Shown piece by piece: positions 11,651 through 55,812 of a stretch of DNA of 64,000 bases. The position numbers and the translations under genes are program-made. The first letter of the stretch is position 1. Each line of letters begins with the position of its first letter. Below the pieces are notes generated by a model. That model was not told the origin of the DNA and searched no databases. It saw only the letters and a list, made by a program, of their open reading frames with translations. The DNA is taken from the NCBI RefSeq assembly GCF_009914755.1, contig NC_060926.1; one strand, given 5' to 3'. Source of the DNA: the human T2T-CHM13v2.0 reference genome, Homo sapiens.

Positions 11651-12634
11651 CTTAGTAGTCACAGCTCAGAAATCAGGATTGGCACTACCTGTGCTCACTG
11701 GGATGATAATTCCCATCTCCAGGACACATGGAGTCCTAGAACCTGTATGGCTTTGACTAAGTGATAGGACTTCTCTGAGACTCAGTCACTTGTCAGTTAA
11801 ATGGGTATAGGATTATTCATAAGGGTTTCCAGCTCATGGGGTTATTGTAAATGAGGTAACATTTGTAAAGTGCCTGGCACTTAGTAACTGCTAAACAAAC
11901 ATAGCTATAATGGTCATGGGGAGGATAGAATTTTGTGTATGCAAAGTGTGCATAGTGCTGAATAGGGCAGGGATCGGGTGGAACACACAAAATATTTGGT
12001 GAGTGTGCTTCCCTGTGATTGAGAACACTGGCCAACTTTGTGAATAATGGGGGTACCTCTGTGCACCTTTGCTTGTGTGTGTGAATGTACGGGGGTAGGG
12101 GGCCGCGCATGGGACAATCGCGAGGTAAGGCAAGATAAAGCCCTCTCTGGCTTTCTTGAGAAGCCTTAGGGTTTTCACAGTCTGAGTCCATGTTAACACG
12201 CAGTCCACACCCGCCAGGACCCTTGCCCTGCGTTTGACCTAGGCGCCCCCACCCGGCGCTGTGCCCTTCGGCGAGTTCGGTTCTGCCTGGCACAGTGTGT
12301 GTGCGCGCATGTTTGTGGAATGAGCAAGTCGAGATGCTGCTGACCTTCCAGAGAGGCCCCGCGGGAGGAGGTGAGGGTGGGAGGAGGCTGCGCTGGGCTG
12401 CCAGAAAGTGGCCTGAGCTAGAGGCCATTGCACCCCTTTCTGTGCCTCAGTTTCCTCATGTGCCTATGGCTCCGGAGGCAGATGCAGGGTGGGGGTCCGT
12501 GGCTCTCGGCGTTAGGAGGTGACCGGTGGTCGTGTAGGGAGGCAGGTGAGGGCCTCCCCGGGGGAAGTAGGGGGACAGGACAAGGAAGGGGCCCCAGGTG
12601 GGGTGCAGGCTGGCGAGGGAGGGGCGGACTCCAG

Positions 12635-12671
12635 CGCCGCCGCCGCCGCTGCTGCCGCCGCCGTCGCCGCC
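12635..12671 (+). repeat. Interrupted (GCC)n repeat in 5'UTR of alternative first exon
   Basis: cgccgccgccgccgctgctgccgccgccgtcgccgcc. Confidence 0.9.
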
Positions 12672-12826
12672 TTACCCCCACCCGGCTCCCGAGGCCCCAG
12701 GCTCCTTCCGCCACCCGCGCCGGCTCCCGCCCGCTCCCCAGCTCGCCCCCGGCCCCGCCTCCGACTCCGCCCCGCCCCCGCCCGTCCCCTCCTCGCCCGG
12801 CCGCCGGCCCGGCCCCCTCCCCCGCC

Positions 12827-12859
12827 ATGAAGAAGCTGTGGGTGAAGAAGCGTTTCCAG
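12827..12859 (+). CDS. SPEG: Alternative first coding exon (MKKLWVKKRFQ)
   Basis: Kozak CCGCCATGA; donor CAG|GTGAGG, phase 0. Confidence 0.85.
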
Positions 12860-13553
12860 GTGAGGGCTCCGGGGGCGGGCGGCGCCGGGAGGGGGCAGGG
12901 AGGCCTGGGCGCCCCGGAGGGAGGGCGGGTCACCGCAGCTGGGCCCGGTGGAGGGGGCGCTGGATCGGCGCCTGCCCCACCCGAGCCCCGCCGAGGGCGG
13001 CGGGCCGGGCGCGATCTAGGGGCGCCCGGGTCTGTGTCCTGAGCGCGCAGGCCCCTCCCCGCGCTGAAGGGCAGATCCCCCGCTCCCCGATCGCCCGCAA
13101 TCCCCGCGACCACCGGGGAAGGCCCCCGCTGCAGCGTTCGGCGTGGAGCGCCCACTTGCTTCTTTGCCACATCTTCTCTCTCCTCTGTCCAACCTCAACC
13201 CCGGGCCCCGGCCCCCCGCCCGGCCTGCCCCAGCCCCCCACTCTGAAGCTTTCCATCTTCCGGAGCTCCTGAAAGCAACGCACACGGATCCGCGCTGAGC
13301 TCAATACATTCCCCAAGCCCTGCCCTGTCCTCCGCGCACCTGGGCCTCCTGCATTCGTGAGGCTCTGGCCCTCTGCCCCCATCATCCCTCCCCCACCCCC
13401 TTGACACCTACCCAGGTTTCTGTCCTCCCCCCAGCAGGAATCTGTGCCCTCGTTCCTCCATCTCCCAGTCACTCAAGCACCCCGCCCCCCGCATCCCCAT
13501 CTTCTCCTTCTCCTCACTGAGCCTGACTACCTCGTCTTCTATCCTCTTTCTCT

Positions 13554-13599
13554 CGGGCTGTTGCCCTGGTCCCGGGCTGTTGCCCTGGTCCCGGGCTGT
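13554..13599. repeat. 19-bp tandem duplication (cgggctgttgccctggtcc x ~2.4)
   Basis: Perfect direct repeat read from sequence. Confidence 0.9.
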
Positions 13600-13883
13600 G
13601 AGCCTCTGTCCAGTGGGATGTTCCAGCTTCCACCTGCAGCCTGCAGTTCTCTCCTTCCTCCCCTGCTCCTCCCAAGAGCCCAGCTGGGTACCCTGGAAGA
13701 AGGCAGGGGAGTCATTCCCTACAGGGGAAGCTGGTCACTCTGGGTCTCTGCCCACCTCCCCTCTCACACACACACTGGCCAGGGAATGAGTTTCTGCTTG
13801 ATGTTGCAGGTCTGGATGGGAGGCACAGGGACCTTAGGAACAAGCCTCCCCCTCAACTACTCATTCTGGCTTTTCTCTTTCAG

Positions 13884-13926
13884 AAAACCGGCCATTCCCG
13901 CCGGGCCTTTGGCCGACTCACCCATG
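13884..13926 (+). CDS. SPEG: Alternative exon (KTGHSRRAFGRLTH) joining exon 2 in frame
   Basis: Acceptor ttttctctttcag|; donor ATG|GTGCGT; enters phase 0, exits phase 1, matching exon 2. Confidence 0.82.
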
Positions 13927-14551: not shown

Positions 14552-14805
14552 GGCCAGTGGCAGCACCAGTAAGTGCCAAGGATACCAGAACCACTGGGGC
14601 AGCTGGAATAACAAGCCCAAGTATGGGGGTCCCCCGTGCTGGGCACATCCCAGGTATCTCCCTCCCCACCCATTGCCACAGGACACCTCTGGGGACTGGG
14701 TGCCTCACGCCCCTTCTGTCTTGACTGCCCTCCATGCCCTGCCCCACAAACGCTCTGATAACAGTCTGTCCCTGTCTCTCTCCTGCTGCTCCTATGGAAG
14801 CGAAG

Positions 14806-14835
14806 TTTTCCGCTCCTGCAGAAAGCAAAGTTACG
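14806..14835 (+). CDS. SPEG: Candidate 30-nt cassette microexon (VFRSCRKQSY)
   Basis: Pyrimidine tract 14765-14793 with TGCTGC, AG at 14804-14805, donor ACG|GTAGGA; phase 1 to phase 1, no stop. Confidence 0.6.
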
Positions 14836-15428: not shown

Positions 15429-15518
15429 ACTCAGAGACGGCTGAGGATGACATCAGCGATGTGCAGGGAACCCAGCGCCTGGAGCTTCGGGATGACGGGG
15501 CCTTCAGCACCCCCACGG
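15429..15518 (+). CDS. SPEG: SPEG exon 2
   Basis: ttctccag| ... G|GTGAGC; [12 protein letters not shown]... Confidence 0.95.
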
Positions 15519-18750: not shown

Positions 18751-20048
18751 CAGCGTCCCTCAGAGCGGGTTGCGCAGGGAGGAGCCCGACCTTCAGCCTC
18801 AACTGGCCAGCGAAGCCCCACGCCGCCCTGCCCAGCCGCCTCCTTCCAAATCCGCGCTGCTCCCCCCACCGTCCCCTCGGGTCGGGAAGCGGTCCCCGCC
18901 GGGACCCCCGGCCCAGCCCGCGGCCACCCCCACGTCGCCCCACCGTCGCACTCAGGAGCCTGTGCTGCCCGAGGACACCACCACCGAAGAGAAGCGAGGG
19001 AAGAAGTCCAAGTCGTCCGGGCCCTCCCTGGCGGGCACCGCGGAATCCCGACCCCAGACGCCACTGAGCGAGGCCTCAGGCCGCCTGTCGGCGTTGGGCC
19101 GATCGCCTAGGCTGGTGCGCGCCGGCTCCCGCATCCTGGACAAGCTGCAGTTCTTCGAGGAGCGACGGCGCAGCCTGGAGCGCAGCGACTCGCCGCCGGC
19201 GCCCCTGCGGCCCTGGGTGCCCCTGCGCAAGGCCCGCTCTCTGGAGCAGCCCAAGTCGGAGCGCGGCGCACCGTGGGGCACCCCCGGGGCCTCGCAGGAA
19301 GAACTGCGGGCGCCAGGCAGCGTGGCCGAGCGGCGCCGCCTGTTCCAGCAGAAAGCGGCCTCGCTGGACGAGCGCACGCGTCAGCGCAGCCCGGCCTCAG
19401 ACCTCGAGCTGCGCTTCGCCCAGGAGCTGGGCCGCATCCGCCGCTCCACGTCGCGGGAGGAGCTGGTGCGCTCGCACGAGTCCCTGCGCGCCACGCTGCA
19501 GCGTGCCCCATCCCCTCGAGAGCCCGGCGAGCCCCCGCTCTTCTCTCGGCCCTCCACCCCCAAGACATCGCGGGCCGTGAGCCCCGCCGCCGCCCAGCCG
19601 CCCTCTCCGAGCAGCGCGGAGAAGCCGGGGGACGAGCCTGGGAGGCCCAGGAGCCGCGGGCCGGCGGGCAGGACAGAGCCGGGGGAAGGCCCGCAGCAGG
19701 AGGTTAGGCGTCGGGACCAATTCCCGCTGACCCGGAGCAGAGCCATCCAGGAGTGCAGGAGCCCTGTGCCGCCCCCCGCCGCCGATCCCCCAGAGGCCAG
19801 GACGAAAGCACCCCCCGGTCGGAAGCGGGAGCCCCCGGCGCAGGCCGTGCGCTTCCTGCCCTGGGCCACGCCGGGCCTGGAGGGCGCTGCTGTACCCCAG
19901 ACCTTGGAGAAGAACAGGGCGGGGCCTGAGGCAGAGAAGAGGCTTCGCAGAGGGCCGGAGGAGGACGGTCCCTGGGGGCCCTGGGACCGCCGAGGGGCCC
20001 GCAGCCAGGGCAAAGGTCGCCGGGCCCGGCCCACCTCCCCTGAGCTCG
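18751..20048 (+). CDS. SPEG: SPEG exon 4 (large Pro/Arg/Ser-rich linker; exonic CpG island)
   Basis: ttctgcag| ... G|GTAAGG; 1298 nt open frame (ORF 18770..20221). Confidence 0.97.
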
Positions 20049-35147: not shown

Positions 35148-35323
35148 GCTGAGAAACCGCCAGCCCGTGCGCCCAGACCAGCGGCGCTTTGCGGAGGAGG
35201 CTGAGGGTGGGCTGTGCCGGCTGCGGATCCTGGCTGCAGAGCGTGGCGATGCTGGTTTCTACACTTGCAAAGCGGTCAATGAGTATGGTGCTCGGCAGTG
35301 CGAGGCCCGCTTGGAGGTCCGAG
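35148..35323 (+). CDS. SPEG: SPEG exon 9 (Ig with RGD at 35242-35250)
   Basis: ctgacag| ... G|GTGAGT; [11 protein letters not shown]. Confidence 0.96.
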
Positions 35324-36504
35324 GTGAGTACCTGATTTCTCCATGAATGCCCACCTGGCCCTGGCCCCTTCCTTCCCCCACTGTCTGCTCTCACACAGCC
35401 TCAGTTAGAGGATGCCACCACTGAAAGGGCCTTAAGGGGCCCCTAGTCCAGCTGCTTATATTATTGTTGAGTGAACCAAAGCCCAGAGACAGGAAGTGAC
35501 CTGCCCAAAGCTGCACAGCACATTGTTCCGTGCTCAGCTTACTACACAACACCACCTTCCCTGTTGCTCCATCACGGAGCCCTGGCGGCAGCCAGAGACC
35601 CTGCACCTGCCACTGGCCAAGCTCTCTCTACACTCTTCTGAGCCTTTGTCACCCTGCTCTGCCCAGGACCCTCCCTCATCCCCCTCCCCTTCTCCTCTCG
35701 CCCCTTTGCCCACCCTCCCATCCCATTGCTGTGCAGAAGCTACTGTGAGGTAGCGGTGGGGAGAGTCTGGTGGCTGGACCCGTTCGGAGGGGCCCTTGGG
35801 GTGGCTTAGGCTTGGAGCATCACAGGGACCCTAGGGTGCCAGGGTGAGCACAGCTGTGACGTGTGAAGAGGCCTGGGCCCCCAGAGCCTGGGGCATATGT
35901 GCAGGGGCCCTCTCAGGCAGCAGAAATGCCAGGCCCTGGCTAGGGGGCCCTCGAGGGCCATGGGTTTTCCTCCCCAAAGGCCACAACCGTTTATCTTGCC
36001 TTCCACCTCACCCTTCGCCTCAATGGCTCCTCGCTTCCTCTCCTCGCTTCTCACTCAGCCCCCAGCCCCTGACCTTCCCCAAGGCTCAGAGCTCAGACCC
36101 TGACAGTCATGGTCCCTCTGCTGGCCCCCCTGCCTCAGTTCCCCTCCTCTGTGCCTGCCGTTCCTGTAGTTGCCACTTCCTTGGTCTCCAGATTCTTCAG
36201 CCCTCCTCCCCGGCCTGCTTTCTCTCCAGGGCCTGGCTCTGCCTCGCTTCTCTGTATTAACCCATGTCTTGGTGCTTCTTTCTCTTGGGGATTCCTTCCG
36301 ACACCCCCAGGCTTTGGGGTGCTCCTGATCCCATGAATGCCTGGTTGCCCGGGGTCTCTGCCTGCCCAGGAACCCCGAGGAACCAGTCTCTGGCTAGCTG
36401 CCGGCCCTCGCAGCCCAGAGCTGTCCTTGGGGGAGCCAAGAGTGGCAGTGCTGCCCTGACGGTGTGAGAGGCAGCCCTCTATGCAGAAGGGCCCTAGCCA
36501 GGTC

Positions 36505-36725
36505 TGCGTGCCTGTGCGTGCATGTGTGCGTGTGCGTGCGCATGCGTGCGTGTATGTGCATGCATGTGTGTGCATGTGTGTGCGTGTGTGCGTGCGTGTG
36601 CATGTGTGCGTATGGGTGTGTGCATGCGTGTGTGTGTGTGCGCGTGTGCGTGCGCGTGTGCGTGCATGTGTGCGTGTGCATGCGTGTGTGTGCATGTGTG
36701 TGTGTGCGCGTGCGTGTGCGTATGC
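36505..36725. repeat. Complex (TG/CG/CA) alternating purine-pyrimidine repeat
   Basis: ~220 nt of gtgtgcgtgcatgt-type units. Confidence 0.95.
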
Positions 36726-36771
36726 TGCACTAACCTGCCGCTTGCTGACTGAGGTTTTTGTCTGTACACAG

Positions 36772-37580
36772 GCGAGTGAGCTCAGGGGGCCACCTGCGCT
36801 CCCCCCGCTACCCTCCGAGCCGCGCCCCTGTCTCAGGCACCTCTCGGACCTCGCTGTGTTTCACTGCCTCCTGCCCACAGACCCAGGCCTGCCGGCCCGG
36901 ACCCGTCCCAGCCTCCCCTCCCCACCCCATGCAGCCCCCAGGGGGATAGCCCATGGGCCCCTGTGGACCCTCCCTCCCCAAGTGGACACATGGCTGTGCA
37001 GGCCAGGAGGCCCACAGATGGACTGAGTGCTGGGAAGGGGCGGCTGCGAGGGGTATCAACCCCCCGAGTCTCTCCCTGAAGGGGAGCACCGGGCGAGTGC
37101 ATGTGCTACTGCTGCTACAGGCCTGTCTATCTGTTTGTCTGTCTGTGTGTCTGTGACAGTCAGGGAAGGATGCCTCGGAGCTGAGGTGGGGTGAGACAGA
37201 GTGGGAGAGATTACGGCATGGCATGGAGGGGCCCAAGGAGCAGGGGCTGTTGACAAAGGCCTTACCAGGAAGGGTTAGGACACTGACCATTCTAGAAATG
37301 GGTTTCGAATGGCACAACACTTTCTATTTCACAAAAGACCAAAAGCCAGAGGCCCCAGGCTCTGTGCTGATGAACAGCCTGGCTGAGCCCTGGCCCTGGC
37401 AGGTTTAGGGCCCATTTGGGGCCCCCTCCTTCTCTGTCAGGGCTGGGGTGCTCTGTCTGGGAATGAGGGAGTTAACCAAGTTTGGTGCAGGAGCAGGGGC
37501 AGGGGGCCACTGTAGTGAGCGTGGAGAAATTTGGAAACACCTATTTCTTAACTCAAATAAAGTCCAGTTTGTACCTATCT
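36772..37580 (+). other. SPEG: Alternative internal terminal exon (adds GE*, TGA 36777-36779) of short kinase-less isoforms APEG-1/BPEG
   Basis: Branch CACTAAC 36728-36734, acceptor tacacag|, phase-1 join gives RLEVRGE*; ATG 32698 to this stop = 113 aa. Confidence 0.85.
37556..37561 (+). terminator. Internal polyadenylation signal AATAAA
   Basis: Followed ~20 nt later by a GU/U-rich element (ggtgtgttgtgttttttttt). Confidence 0.85.
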
Positions 37581-53523: not shown

Positions 53524-53592
53524 ACTCAGGCAAAGGGCGCAGAGGTGAGCACGGATCACCTGAAGCTATTCCTCTCCCGGCGGAGGTGGCAG
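53524..53592 (+). CDS. SPEG: SPEG exon 29 (kinase 1 regulatory tail, [11 protein letters not shown])
   Basis: ttgcag| ... CAG|GTAAGT. Confidence 0.95.
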
Positions 53593-53837
53593 GTAAGTGT
53601 GGCAGGCCAGCCTCTGTGCTTTCCACCTTCTCCTTTTCTCTAGCACTGCCTTCCCCCTCCCGTGGGCCTTCATCTCCTGCTCCTGTCTTCTCGCTTTCAC
53701 TGGCTCCATGCCTAGCTTCCTGCCTGTTCCCTGACCCTCTGCATGCTCAGGCCTCTTCCCCAGGGCTGAGGTGGGCCTGGGGGGGACAATCCTGCCCCAG
53801 GGGTCCCTCAGGTCTGACTCCAGTACCCTGTCTCCAG

Positions 53838-55812
53838 CGCTCCCAGATCAGCTACAAATGCCACCTGGTGCTGCGCCCCATCCCCGAGCTGCTGCGGGCC
53901 CCCCCAGAGCGGGTGTGGGTGACCATGCCCAGAAGGCCACCCCCCAGTGGGGGGCTCTCATCCTCCTCGGATTCTGAAGAGGAAGAGCTGGAAGAGCTGC
54001 CCTCAGTGCCCCGCCCACTGCAGCCCGAGTTCTCTGGCTCCCGGGTGTCCCTCACAGACATTCCCACTGAGGATGAGGCCCTGGGGACCCCAGAGACTGG
54101 GGCTGCCACCCCCATGGACTGGCAGGAGCAGGGAAGGGCTCCCTCTCAGGACCAGGAGGCTCCCAGCCCAGAGGCCCTCCCCTCCCCAGGCCAGGAGCCC
54201 GCAGCTGGGGCTAGCCCCAGGCGGGGAGAGCTCCGCAGGGGCAGCTCGGCTGAGAGCGCCCTGCCCCGGGCCGGGCCGCGGGAGCTGGGCCGGGGCCTGC
54301 ACAAGGCGGCGTCTGTGGAGCTGCCGCAGCGCCGGAGCCCCAGCCCGGGAGCCACCCGCCTGGCCCGGGGAGGCCTGGGTGAGGGCGAGTATGCCCAGAG
54401 GCTGCAGGCCCTGCGCCAGCGGCTGCTGCGGGGAGGCCCCGAGGATGGCAAGGTCAGCGGCCTCAGGGGTCCCCTGCTGGAGAGCCTGGGGGGCCGTGCT
54501 CGGGACCCCCGGATGGCACGAGCTGCCTCCAGCGAGGCAGCGCCCCACCACCAGCCCCCACTCGAGAACCGGGGCCTGCAAAAGAGCAGCAGCTTCTCCC
54601 AGGGTGAGGCGGAGCCCCGGGGCCGGCACCGCCGAGCGGGGGCGCCCCTCGAGATCCCCGTGGCCAGGCTTGGGGCCCGTAGGCTACAGGAGTCTCCTTC
54701 CCTGTCTGCCCTCAGCGAGGCCCAGCCATCCAGCCCTGCACGGCCCAGCGCCCCCAAACCCAGTACCCCTAAGTCTGCAGAACCTTCTGCCACCACACCT
54801 AGTGATGCTCCGCAGCCCCCCGCACCCCAGCCTGCCCAAGACAAGGCTCCAGAGCCCAGGCCAGAACCAGTCCGAGCCTCCAAGCCTGCACCACCCCCCC
54901 AGGCCCTGCAAACCCTAGCGCTGCCCCTCACACCCTATGCTCAGATCATTCAGTCCCTCCAGCTGTCAGGCCACGCCCAGGGCCCCTCGCAGGGCCCTGC
55001 CGCGCCGCCTTCAGAGCCCAAGCCCCACGCTGCTGTCTTTGCCAGGGTGGCCTCCCCACCTCCGGGAGCCCCCGAGAAGCGCGTGCCCTCAGCCGGGGGT
55101 CCCCCGGTGCTAGCCGAGAAAGCCCGAGTTCCCACGGTGCCCCCCAGGCCAGGCAGCAGTCTCAGTAGCAGCATCGAAAACTTGGAGTCGGAGGCCGTGT
55201 TCGAGGCCAAGTTCAAGCGCAGCCGCGAGTCGCCCCTGTCGCTGGGGCTGCGGCTGCTGAGCCGTTCGCGCTCGGAGGAGCGCGGCCCCTTCCGTGGGGC
55301 CGAGGAGGAGGATGGCATATACCGGCCCAGCCCGGCGGGGACCCCGCTGGAGCTGGTGCGACGGCCTGAGCGCTCACGCTCGGTGCAGGACCTCAGGGCT
55401 GTCGGAGAGCCTGGCCTCGTCCGCCGCCTCTCGCTGTCACTGTCCCAGCGGCTGCGGCGGACCCCTCCCGCGCAGCGCCACCCGGCCTGGGAGGCCCGCG
55501 GCGGGGACGGAGAGAGCTCGGAGGGCGGGAGCTCGGCGCGGGGCTCCCCGGTGCTGGCGATGCGCAGGCGGCTGAGCTTCACCCTGGAGCGGCTGTCCAG
55601 CCGATTGCAGCGCAGTGGCAGCAGCGAGGACTCGGGGGGCGCGTCGGGCCGCAGCACGCCGCTGTTCGGACGGCTTCGCAGGGCCACGTCCGAGGGCGAG
55701 AGTCTGCGGCGCCTTGGCCTTCCGCACAACCAGTTGGCCGCCCAGGCCGGCGCCACCACGCCTTCCGCCGAGTCCCTGGGCTCCGAGGCCAGCGCCACGT
55801 CGGGCTCCTCAG
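53838..55812 (+). CDS. SPEG: SPEG exon 30 (1975-nt inter-kinase linker; exonic CpG island)
   Basis: ctccag| ... G|GTGAGG; within ORF 53325..55832. Confidence 0.97.

What the first reader, a model, noticed from the sequence alone, without database searches (positions are those of the whole stretch)
12827..13926. Alternative N-terminus looks like an orphan MLCK autoinhibitory/calmodulin-binding module with no adjacent kinase
Seen: two small exons (12827-12859, 13884-13926) from an internal CpG promoter encode MKKLWVKKRFQ|KTGHSRRAFGRLTH and splice in frame to exon 2, replacing Ig1. Known (recalled): the smooth-muscle MLCK pseudosubstrate/CaM-binding segment is MKKYMARRKWQKTG(H/N)AVRAIGRLSS. The ungapped alignment has 12-13 of 25 identities and keeps the basic cluster and the 1 and 14 hydrophobic anchors (F...L); anchor 8 is V->R. 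The phase-0 intron after 'FQ' is at the same position as the intron after 'RRRWQ' in SPEG's own kinase-1 tail (exon 29/30), which suggests an exon-shuffled regulatory tail. Inference: the promoter switch adds a Ca2+/CaM sensor or trans-acting pseudosubstrate, either to a kinase-less isoform (via the terminal exon at 36772) or ~1500 aa upstream of kinase 1. The isoform is probably the known BPEG, but I am not aware of this motif having been characterised.
Basis: partly seen in the sequence, partly recalled or inferred. Interest (0 to 1): 0.82.

Follow-up and report, generated by a model that had tools for sequence, protein, structure and literature searches.

The report
MLCK-like calmodulin motif heads kinase-less SPEG

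Summary
Exons 12827-12859 and 13884-13926 have an ATG, GT/AG sites and the right phase into exon 15429. They sit in a CpG island and are annotated.

The 25-mer aligns without gaps to human MYLK read from the genome: 12 of 25 identical, 19 of 25 positive, and 0 of 200,000 shuffles reach the score. In PDB searches, the significant hits are all smMLCK calmodulin-binding peptides.

New here:
- MYLK has the same phase-0 intron after W-Q, as do MYLK2, MYLK3, SPEG kinase 1 and OBSCN kinase 1.
- The second exon is MYLK-type, not SPEG/OBSCN-type.
- The module is nearly invariant in mammals and also present in birds, a lizard and teleosts. It is better conserved than the next exon.
- It heads kinase-less proteins that end at the APEG-1 stop, which is BPEG-like. 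One unnamed 2811-residue fish-like model with a kinase domain also carries it.

Homology is well supported. Calmodulin binding is only inferred. Against it: anchor 8 is hydrophilic, amphipathicity is half that of MYLK, and sauropsids lack one residue. I found no description of the motif in print.

The parts
12100..13300 (.). CpG island around the alternative transcription starts
   Evidence: G+C 0.71, CpG observed/expected 0.71, 109 CpG. G+C reaches 0.75-0.84 in 200-base windows between 12500 and 13099. The hub table lists first exons that start at 12769-12819. Promoter activity was not tested here.
12769..12826 (+). 5'UTR of the alternative first exon (longest annotated form)
   Evidence: No ATG inside. 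The start context is GCC ATG A.
12827..12859 (+). Coding exon a: MKKLWVKKRFQ, ending in phase 0
   Evidence: It aligns to MYLK MKKYMARRKWQ (4 of 11 identical, score 25). All five basic positions stay basic, and the start Met falls on an internal Met of MYLK.
12860..13883 (+). Phase-0 intron that splits the motif right after the aromatic anchor and Q
   Evidence: gtgagg...tttcag. The same place and phase are seen in MYLK, MYLK2 and MYLK3, SPEG-K1 and OBSCN-K1.
13884..13926 (+). Coding exon b: KTGHSRRAFGRLTH plus 1 base, ending in phase 1
   Evidence: It matches MYLK KTGNAVRAIGRLSS at 8 of 14 positions (score 39; BLASTP E 0.002 against the 807-residue isoform). The MYLK exon also starts in phase 0 and ends in phase 1 (130 bases).
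14806..14835 (+). Optional 30-base mini-exon VFRSCRKQSY; an alternative acceptor at 14801 shifts the frame
   Evidence: Sequence. It follows the module in 22 of 37 module-bearing proteins held. It is 10 of 10 identical between human and each of 5 teleost-type proteins and a lizard.
15429..15518 (+). Shared SPEG exon 2, entered in frame from exon b or from the mini-exon
36772..36779 (+). Start of the APEG-1/BPEG terminal exon: completes Gly, then Glu and stop
   Evidence: ag|GC GAG TGA. The proteins end ...[10 protein letters not shown].
53524..53879 (+). For comparison: SPEG kinase-1 tail ...[11 protein letters not shown] | [14 protein letters not shown] with its phase-0 intron (53593-53837)
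   Evidence: Against the alternative N-terminus it has only 5 of 25 identical residues, score 11.

Best explanation
The two mini-exons are a genuine alternative translation start of SPEG, conserved across bony vertebrates and driven from an internal CpG-island promoter. They replace the first Ig domain with a 25-residue basic peptide. With the optional mini-exon the peptide is 35 residues. This peptide is homologous to the autoinhibitory/calmodulin-binding segment that follows the catalytic domain of smooth-muscle-type myosin light-chain kinase (MYLK). It has the same ungapped register, the same basic cluster, the same aromatic anchor, the Q-K-T-G-H core and G-R-L end, and the same phase-0 intron after the anchor. 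An ancestor of bony vertebrates therefore acquired or kept a MYLK-type regulatory tail at the genomic level, intron included, without its kinase. SPEG uses it as the head of kinase-less, BPEG-type proteins of about 740-870 residues that end at the APEG-1 stop, and possibly of long kinase-bearing forms. Up to here the account is shown or strongly supported; I put the homology at about 0.8. The rest is inferred, at about 0.5. The peptide would be disordered when free and would bind Ca2+/calmodulin as a basic amphipathic helix through the F10 and L23 (positions 1 and 14) anchors and the invariant G-R. That would make the localisation or interactions of the kinase-less isoform depend on calcium.
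For: - **Exons and frame:** they read as described. The exons are in the RefSeq table given by the hub. NCBI names human isoforms 8, 9, 11 and 13 that carry this start.
- **Similarity to MYLK from the genome:** 12 of 25 identical, 19 of 25 positive, score 64. 0 of 200,000 shuffles reach it.
- **PDB search with the 25-mer:** 8 of 8 hits at E up to 10 are smMLCK peptides (6) or calcium sensors named WHaloCaMP1a and RCaMP (2). The best E is 0.0046.
- **PDB search with a profile of 9 vertebrate N-termini:** the best E improves to 0.0007 and the top 7 of 15 hits are the same kind. The other 8 have E above 1. The positions conserved within SPEG are thus the ones shared with MLCK.
- **Intron:** a phase-0 intron directly after W/F-Q/K is present in MYLK, MYLK2 and MYLK3, SPEG-K1 and OBSCN-K1. 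That is 5 of 5 tails in which the exon was found.
- **Second exon:** MYLK-type (8 of 14, score 39), against -5 for both SPEG-K1 and OBSCN-K1.
- **Conservation:** 37 of 154 proteins held carry the start. 23 have the human 25-mer, 1 monkey differs at one site, 5 birds are identical to each other, and there are 1 lizard and 7 teleost-type sequences. Human against teleost: 18-20 of 25 in the module, 10 of 10 in the mini-exon, and only 7-10 of 31 in the next exon.
- **Invariant positions in 14 aligned orthologues:** M1 K2 K3 W5 K7 K8 R9 Q11 G14 H15 F20 G21 R22 H25.
- **Kinase-less architecture:** Pfam finds only Ig domains and SPEG_u2 in the human isoforms, and the stop is made by the 36772 exon.
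- **From memory, not tested:** the Trp anchor and the Arg-Leu near the end are the residues reported as essential for calmodulin binding in smMLCK.
Against: - **Binding was not measured.** Nothing here measures calmodulin binding.
- **Anchor 8:** it is R in mammals and S, T or N in teleosts, so the 1-8-14 pattern is not kept.
- **Spacing:** birds and the lizard lack one residue between the anchors, and the lizard has L for F10 and G for T13. The MLCK spacing is therefore not strictly preserved.
- **Amphipathicity:** the hydrophobic moment of the equivalent 18-mer is 0.30, against 0.60 for MYLK.
- **Structure prediction:** AlphaFold2 with 14 orthologues gives no helix and pLDDT 33-38 for residues 1-45. 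This is uninformative if the segment folds only on binding.
- **Context:** the segment is not next to any kinase domain. The defining context of the family is missing, and strong conservation could serve another partner.
- **Isoform evidence:** it consists of database models. I saw no reads, CAGE data or peptides.
- **Long isoforms:** proteins over 2000 residues were outside both word-index searches. Linkage to long human isoforms is unknown.
Confidence: 0.55

Rival explanations
1. The peptide is a true relic of a MYLK-type tail, but its conserved function is not calmodulin binding. As a basic, aromatic-rich, disordered N-terminus it would bind acidic membranes, actin or some other partner. 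Alternatively, together with the invariant mini-exon, it would form a different docking or phosphorylation site.
For: There are two invariant blocks (residues 1-16 and FGR[LF][TA]H plus VFRSCRKQSY) joined by a variable stretch of 3-4 residues with an indel in sauropsids. The strongest amphipathic window (0.57) is residues 15-34, which runs into the mini-exon and is not the MLCK-like window. Position 8 is hydrophilic. Net charge is +9 with no acidic residue in 25. The mini-exon has no counterpart in the MYLK exon.
Against: The positions conserved within SPEG orthologues are those shared with the calmodulin-binding core of MLCK. Calmodulin accepts several anchor spacings (general knowledge). No other partner is indicated by any result.
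Confidence: 0.22
2. The peptide acts mainly as a pseudosubstrate. It would inhibit MLCK-family kinases either in trans, from the kinase-less isoform, or in cis on SPEG kinase 1 in long isoforms.
For: The aligned MYLK stretch includes the basic cluster of its autoinhibitory region, and all five basic positions of exon a are kept. One unnamed 2811-residue model joins the module to a protein with a kinase domain at 1564-1815.
Against: In the named human, primate, rodent and bird models seen, the module heads kinase-less proteins. At 1500 residues from the kinase there is no intrasteric geometry. SPEG-K1 has its own, different tail. No assay was done.
Confidence: 0.1
3. The likeness to MLCK is chance or convergence between two basic peptides. 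On this view the exons are simply an alternative start with no MLCK ancestry.
For: The segment is short, and the best database E-values are only 0.0007-0.005. Exon a alone is no closer to MYLK (4 of 11) than to MYLK2 or OBSCN-K1 (4 of 11 each). The backwards control of the genome pattern also gave one hit.
Against: 0 of 200,000 shuffles reach the score. Every PDB hit with E below 1, out of 177,635 distinct sequences, is an smMLCK peptide or a sensor carrying it. The intron place and phase are identical, and both second exons end in phase 1. SPEG itself is an MLCK-family gene.
Confidence: 0.08
4. The peptide is an N-terminal sorting signal, either a mitochondrial presequence or a nuclear signal.
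For: It is N-terminal and basic, has no acidic residues, and is followed by an acidic stretch.
Against: It is rich in Lys and poor in Ala, Leu and Ser. Reading the sequence finds no K-K/R-x-K/R box (consensus recalled). No predictor was available, and nothing links SPEG products to mitochondria in the passages read.
Confidence: 0.03

Closest known systems
[quoted passage not shown]
   Same: Ungapped 25-residue alignment with 12 identical and 19 positive positions. Basic cluster, aromatic anchor, Q-K-T-G-H core and G-R-L end are shared. Both have the phase-0 intron after the anchor and Q, and the second exon ends in phase 1 in both.
   Different: It stands at the very N-terminus behind a promoter, not behind a catalytic domain. 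It has F for W at anchor 1, R for V at anchor 8 and half the hydrophobic moment. Its second exon is 43 bases, against 130 in MYLK. Binding and inhibition are untested.
Telokin (kinase-related protein), the kinase-less product of an internal MYLK promoter
   Same: Both are kinase-less proteins made from an internal promoter of an MLCK-family gene, and both end in an I-set Ig domain. The likeness of APEG-1 to telokin (33% identity, rmsd 0.9 A) is in print (PMC1352370, passages read).
   Different: The telokin start (MAMISG...) lies in the same MYLK exon just after the calmodulin segment, so telokin lacks the segment. The SPEG product begins with it. In a PDB search with the APEG-1 Ig domain, telokin was not among the best 60 of 99 hits, so no special kinship of the Ig domains was seen.
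Predicted calmodulin-binding motifs after SPEG kinase 1 and obscurin kinase 1
   Same: Same gene family and the same intron after R-W-Q. These motifs are predicted in the literature to bind calmodulin (PMC7957886, passages read).
   Different: They are a different sequence type (RSQISYK.../RSLMSYK...). Against the N-terminal module they have 5 of 25 identical residues for SPEG-K1, with second-exon scores of -5 for both. They follow a kinase domain.

Membership tests
smMLCK (MYLK)-type autoinhibitory/calmodulin-binding regulatory segment | Sequence: basic cluster, aromatic anchor, Q-K-T-G-H...R-A-x-G-R-L core, alignable without gaps | tested here: met
   12 of 25 identical and 19 of 25 positive; 0 of 200,000 shuffles reach the score. 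PDB E is 0.0046 for the single sequence and 0.0007 for the profile, and every hit with E below 1 is an smMLCK peptide or a sensor carrying it.
smMLCK (MYLK)-type autoinhibitory/calmodulin-binding regulatory segment | Gene structure: phase-0 intron directly after the aromatic anchor and Q/K | tested here: met
   Seen in SPEG exons a/b, MYLK, MYLK2 and MYLK3, SPEG-K1 and OBSCN-K1. The MYLK4 tail exon was not inside the locus fetched.
smMLCK (MYLK)-type autoinhibitory/calmodulin-binding regulatory segment | Lies directly C-terminal to a CaMK-group catalytic domain | tested here: not met
   It is the first 25 residues behind a 5'UTR. Pfam finds no kinase domain in human isoforms P0005 and P0014.
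smMLCK (MYLK)-type autoinhibitory/calmodulin-binding regulatory segment | Hydrophobic anchors at positions 1, 8 and 14 | tested here: not met
   Positions 1 (F) and 14 (L or F) are kept in mammals and teleosts. Position 8 is R, S, T or N. Sauropsids lack one residue between the anchors.
smMLCK (MYLK)-type autoinhibitory/calmodulin-binding regulatory segment | Ca2+-dependent binding of calmodulin | not testable with these tools
   Needs ITC, fluorescence or pull-down.
smMLCK (MYLK)-type autoinhibitory/calmodulin-binding regulatory segment | Inhibits a kinase as pseudosubstrate | not testable with these tools
   Needs kinase assays.
BPEG (brain preferentially expressed) isoform of SPEG | Kinase-less product that shares the APEG-1 exons and 3' end | tested here: met
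   The proteins are 738-807 residues and end ...[10 protein letters not shown]. The stop comes from the splice 35323>36772. Only Ig and SPEG_u2 domains are found.
BPEG (brain preferentially expressed) isoform of SPEG | 4-kb mRNA in brain and aorta with its published 5' end | not testable with these tools
   Size and tissues come from the review PMC8199188 (passages). The original paper is not held, so the published 5' end could not be compared.
IQ motif | I/L-Q-x3-R-G-x3-R consensus (recalled) | tested here: not met
   Reading the 35 residues finds no such pattern.

The most novel reading that the evidence does not exclude
For over 400 million years, kinase-less SPEG (BPEG) has begun with a free-standing copy of the smMLCK calmodulin-binding/pseudosubstrate segment. 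That would make it a Ca2+/calmodulin-regulated scaffold, or an endogenous calmodulin or MLCK decoy, in brain and vascular smooth muscle. The invariant mini-exon with its R-K-x-S site would act as a splice- and phosphorylation-controlled switch. The shared intron would also record an ancient genomic transfer of a regulatory tail, without its kinase, from a MYLK-type gene into SPEG.
Probability: 0.4. Interest if true: 0.7.

Novelty: new variant of a known kind. Interest (0 to 1): 0.58.

Why it matters
BPEG has had no proposed biochemical activity since it was named. The reviews I read describe it only as a kinase-less brain and aorta isoform. A conserved MLCK-type calmodulin site at its head gives it a concrete hypothesis that can be tested at the bench. 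It also ties a SPEG product to calcium signalling, which is the process disturbed in SPEG disease. It would be an unusual case of a kinase regulatory tail that survives and is conserved apart from any kinase. Finally, it mirrors MYLK and telokin: one gene starts its kinase-less product just after the segment, the other starts with it. If long isoforms also use this start, it bears on how SPEG kinase 1 is regulated.

Tried and rejected
- **Complex prediction:** I ran residues 1-45 of human isoform 8 against the intronless calmodulin-like ORF on chromosome 10 (L005 1255-1701). The verdict was 'no answer' (score 0.01, controls not run), so it counts neither for nor against binding.
- **AlphaFold2 of the 807-residue isoform with 14 orthologues:** the N-terminus is unstructured at low confidence, which is uninformative.
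- **Ig-domain kinship:** in a PDB search with the APEG-1 Ig domain, telokin was not in the best 60 of 99 hits. The idea that the whole BPEG unit is a MYLK C-terminal relic gained no support.
- **BLASTP of the 43-residue MYLK exon against isoform 8:** the alignment stops at residue 26, so the mini-exon shows no MYLK homology.
- **Genome-wide degenerate pattern for K-T-G-[HN]-x2-R-A-x-G-R-L:** it hit only SPEG and MYLK. The pattern was written from that very alignment and its backwards control also gave one hit. It shows only that the human genome has no third copy.
- **Second tail exons of MYLK2 and MYLK3, and the MYLK4 tail:** they lay outside the loci fetched.
- **Genome searches with the 22-residue and 23-residue exon translations:** they found only themselves.
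- **Length limit of the word-index searches:** they covered proteins up to 2000 residues, so long human isoforms with this start were not examined.
- **Sources not available:** Hsieh et al. 2000 and Herring et al. 2006 are not held. No supplements were consulted.
- **Searches for prior description:** the two peptide strings gave 0 papers. 'BPEG' with 'SPEG' gave 16, 'SPEG' with 'calmodulin-binding' gave 24, and 'BPEG' with 'calmodulin' gave 4. In the passages read, only the predicted site after kinase 1 is mentioned.

Full report
**What is in the sequence**

Exon a (12827-12859) opens with ATG in the context GCC ATG A, encodes MKKLWVKKRFQ and is followed by gtgagg. Exon b (13884-13926) follows tttcag. 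It encodes KTGHSRRAFGRLTH plus one base and is followed by gtgcgt. The extra G joins AC of exon 15429 to give Asp and the normal SPEG frame. The longest annotated 5'UTR (12769-12826) holds no ATG.

The exons lie in a CpG island: 12100-13300 is 71% G+C with CpG observed/expected 0.71. Canonical exon 1, which this start replaces, encodes an I-set Ig domain (Pfam E 9e-16). The hub's RefSeq table lists both exons among 'exons of other transcripts'.

**Is the likeness to MLCK real?**

A degenerate pattern for the exon-b core found two places in the 3.1-Gb assembly: this exon and chr3:126340428-126340462 on the minus strand. Reading that locus gives ccag|KTGNAVRAIGRLSSMAMISG.... About 6.5 kb upstream it gives ...DRMKKYMARRKWQ|gtaatg, which is MYLK.

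- **Alignment.** The ungapped 25-residue alignment has 12 identical and 19 positive positions, BLOSUM62 score 64. None of 200,000 composition-preserving shuffles reaches it (mean -13.9, sd 10.3, maximum 38).
- **PDB, single sequence.** The 25-mer was searched against 177,635 distinct PDB sequences. All 8 hits at E up to 10 are smMLCK calmodulin-binding peptides (6) or engineered calcium sensors (2). The best E is 0.0046. An earlier search with a 22-residue contiguous translation gave 6 of 6 such hits.
- **PDB, profile.** A profile of nine vertebrate SPEG N-termini improves the best E to 0.0007. The top 7 of 15 hits are of the same kind and the other 8 have E above 1.
- **BLASTP.** The MYLK exon against the 807-residue isoform aligns only residues 12-26, E 0.002.
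- **Caveat.** The pattern search was built from the alignment and its backwards control also gave one hit. It shows only that there is no third copy.

**Gene structure**

The SPEG module is split by a phase-0 intron right after F-Q. MYLK is split at the identical place after W-Q. So are:
- MYLK2...LMKRRWK|gtaccg
- MYLK3...IAQRKWK|gtattt
- SPEG kinase 1...LSRRRWQ|gtaagt
- OBSCN kinase 1...LARSRWQ|gtgagc, next exon RSLMSYKSILVMRS

That is 5 of 5 family tails in which I found the exon. The MYLK4 exon was outside the locus fetched. The MYLK second exon (130 bases) and SPEG exon b (43 bases) both end in phase 1. The intron thus marks the module as a kinase tail copied at the genomic level.

Exon a is generic for the family: 4 of 11 identical to MYLK, MYLK2 and OBSCN-K1, and 3 of 11 to SPEG-K1. 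Exon b is specifically MYLK-like: 8 of 14 identical and score 39, against -5 for both SPEG-K1 and OBSCN-K1.

**Conservation and isoforms**

The protein database holds NCBI human 'isoform 8, 9, 11 and 13' (738-807 residues) that start with the module and end ...[10 protein letters not shown].

Of the 154 proteins gathered, 37 carry an exon-a-type start:
- 23 have the human 25-mer. These are primates, five rodents, dog, mole, tenrec, sloth and yak, plus one unnamed sequence.
- One owl monkey differs at one site.
- Five birds share MKKIWVKKRFQKTGHSRRFGRFTH.
- One lizard has MKKIWVKKRLQKGGHSRRFGRFTH.
- Seven teleost-type sequences keep the mammalian length.

Partial models were not counted. They begin inside exon b or with other 5' ends: P0003, P0025, P0029-P0031, P0074, P0075 and P0128.

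Human against teleost identity is 18-20 of 25 in the module, 10 of 10 in the mini-exon and 7-10 of 31 in the next exon. The module is therefore under stronger constraint than the neighbouring constitutive coding sequence.

The kinase-less stop is made by splicing 35323 to 36772. Pfam finds only Ig and SPEG_u2 domains. This fits the review description of BPEG as a 4-kb, kinase-less transcript of brain and aorta (PMC8199188, passages). The original paper is not held, so identity with BPEG remains likely but unproven.

One unnamed 2811-residue representative begins with the teleost module. It has a protein kinase domain at 1564-1815 and a ...SRRKWQ|RSLISYK-type tail. Long forms with this head may therefore exist, at least as gene models.

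**How it probably works**

Shown: the start is conserved, it is homologous to the MYLK regulatory segment, and it has no adjacent kinase.

Inferred: it binds Ca2+/calmodulin.

For this:
- The aromatic anchor, the basic cluster and the G-R-(L/F) end are invariant or nearly so.
- The conserved positions are the ones shared with the calmodulin-binding peptides of the PDB.

Against this:
- Position 8 is hydrophilic in all lineages.
- Sauropsids lack one residue between the anchors.
- The hydrophobic moment is 0.30, against 0.60 for MYLK.
- AlphaFold2 predicts no helix.

I put homology at about 0.8 and calmodulin binding at about 0.5. The rivals are another partner for a basic, aromatic-rich disordered head, a pseudosubstrate role, chance resemblance, and a sorting signal.

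**What is known**

The literature I could search knows a predicted calmodulin site after SPEG kinase 1 and after obscurin kinase 1 (PMC7957886, passages; PMC3114093, passages). It also knows the APEG-1/telokin parallel (PMC1352370, passages).

No paper holds either peptide string. None of the passages read in the BPEG or SPEG-calmodulin search results mentions an N-terminal motif. Subscription papers, the 1.7 million unsearched PMC articles and all supplements were not covered.

**Verdict**

The exons and isoforms are already annotated. Their nature as a detached MYLK-type regulatory tail, with shared intron and fish-to-human conservation, appears to be new. It is a new variant of a known kind and gives BPEG a testable function.

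Noticed in passing
window 14801-14835: The 30-base mini-exon (VFRSCRKQSY) is identical in all 10 residues from teleosts to man and holds an invariant R-K-Q-S basophilic-kinase-type site. An acceptor 5 bases upstream (14801) shifts the frame and gives truncated models in chimpanzee (P0001) and in a fish-like sequence (P0121), both with the same AKFSAPAESK read-out. Read-through models in fish and mammals also share ...LSCC[HS]YGSE just upstream, so the intron flank seems conserved too. Together with the tgctgc just before the acceptor, this resembles regulated neuronal micro-exons (recalled, untested).
   Followed up: partly
window 13884-13926 with 14801-14835: Several predicted models (P0035, P0043, P0055, P0082) read exon b in another frame (ENRP[FL]PPGLWPT[HY]P). 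The 35-base form of the mini-exon then restores the SPEG frame (43 + 35 = 78 bases). The same exon may thus be used in two frames, depending on the upstream exon.
   Followed up: partly
window 35324-35347: Reading through the donor at 35323 gives GEYLISP-stop. This C-terminus appears in two database models (P0003, P0029) instead of the spliced ...RGE-stop.
   Followed up: partly
window 13553-13600: There is a tandem duplication of about 21 bases (gggctgttgccctggtccc, two copies plus a partial third) inside the intron between exons a and b.
   Followed up: no
window 12636-12676: A GCC/GCT triplet run lies just upstream of the annotated alternative transcription starts.
   Followed up: no
P0014 residues 304-322 and 369-428 (window exon 18751-20048): AlphaFold2 predicts long helices with pLDDT up to 78 in the otherwise disordered region shared by BPEG and SPEG-beta. 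They fall in the well-conserved ...[16 protein letters not shown]... and ...[13 protein letters not shown]... stretches.
   Followed up: no
L003 1407-1535 (chr3, MYLK): The MYLK exon that begins with the second half of the calmodulin site also holds the telokin start (MAMISG...). The kinase-less MYLK product therefore begins 14 residues after the point where the kinase-less SPEG product's homologous exon begins.
   Followed up: partly
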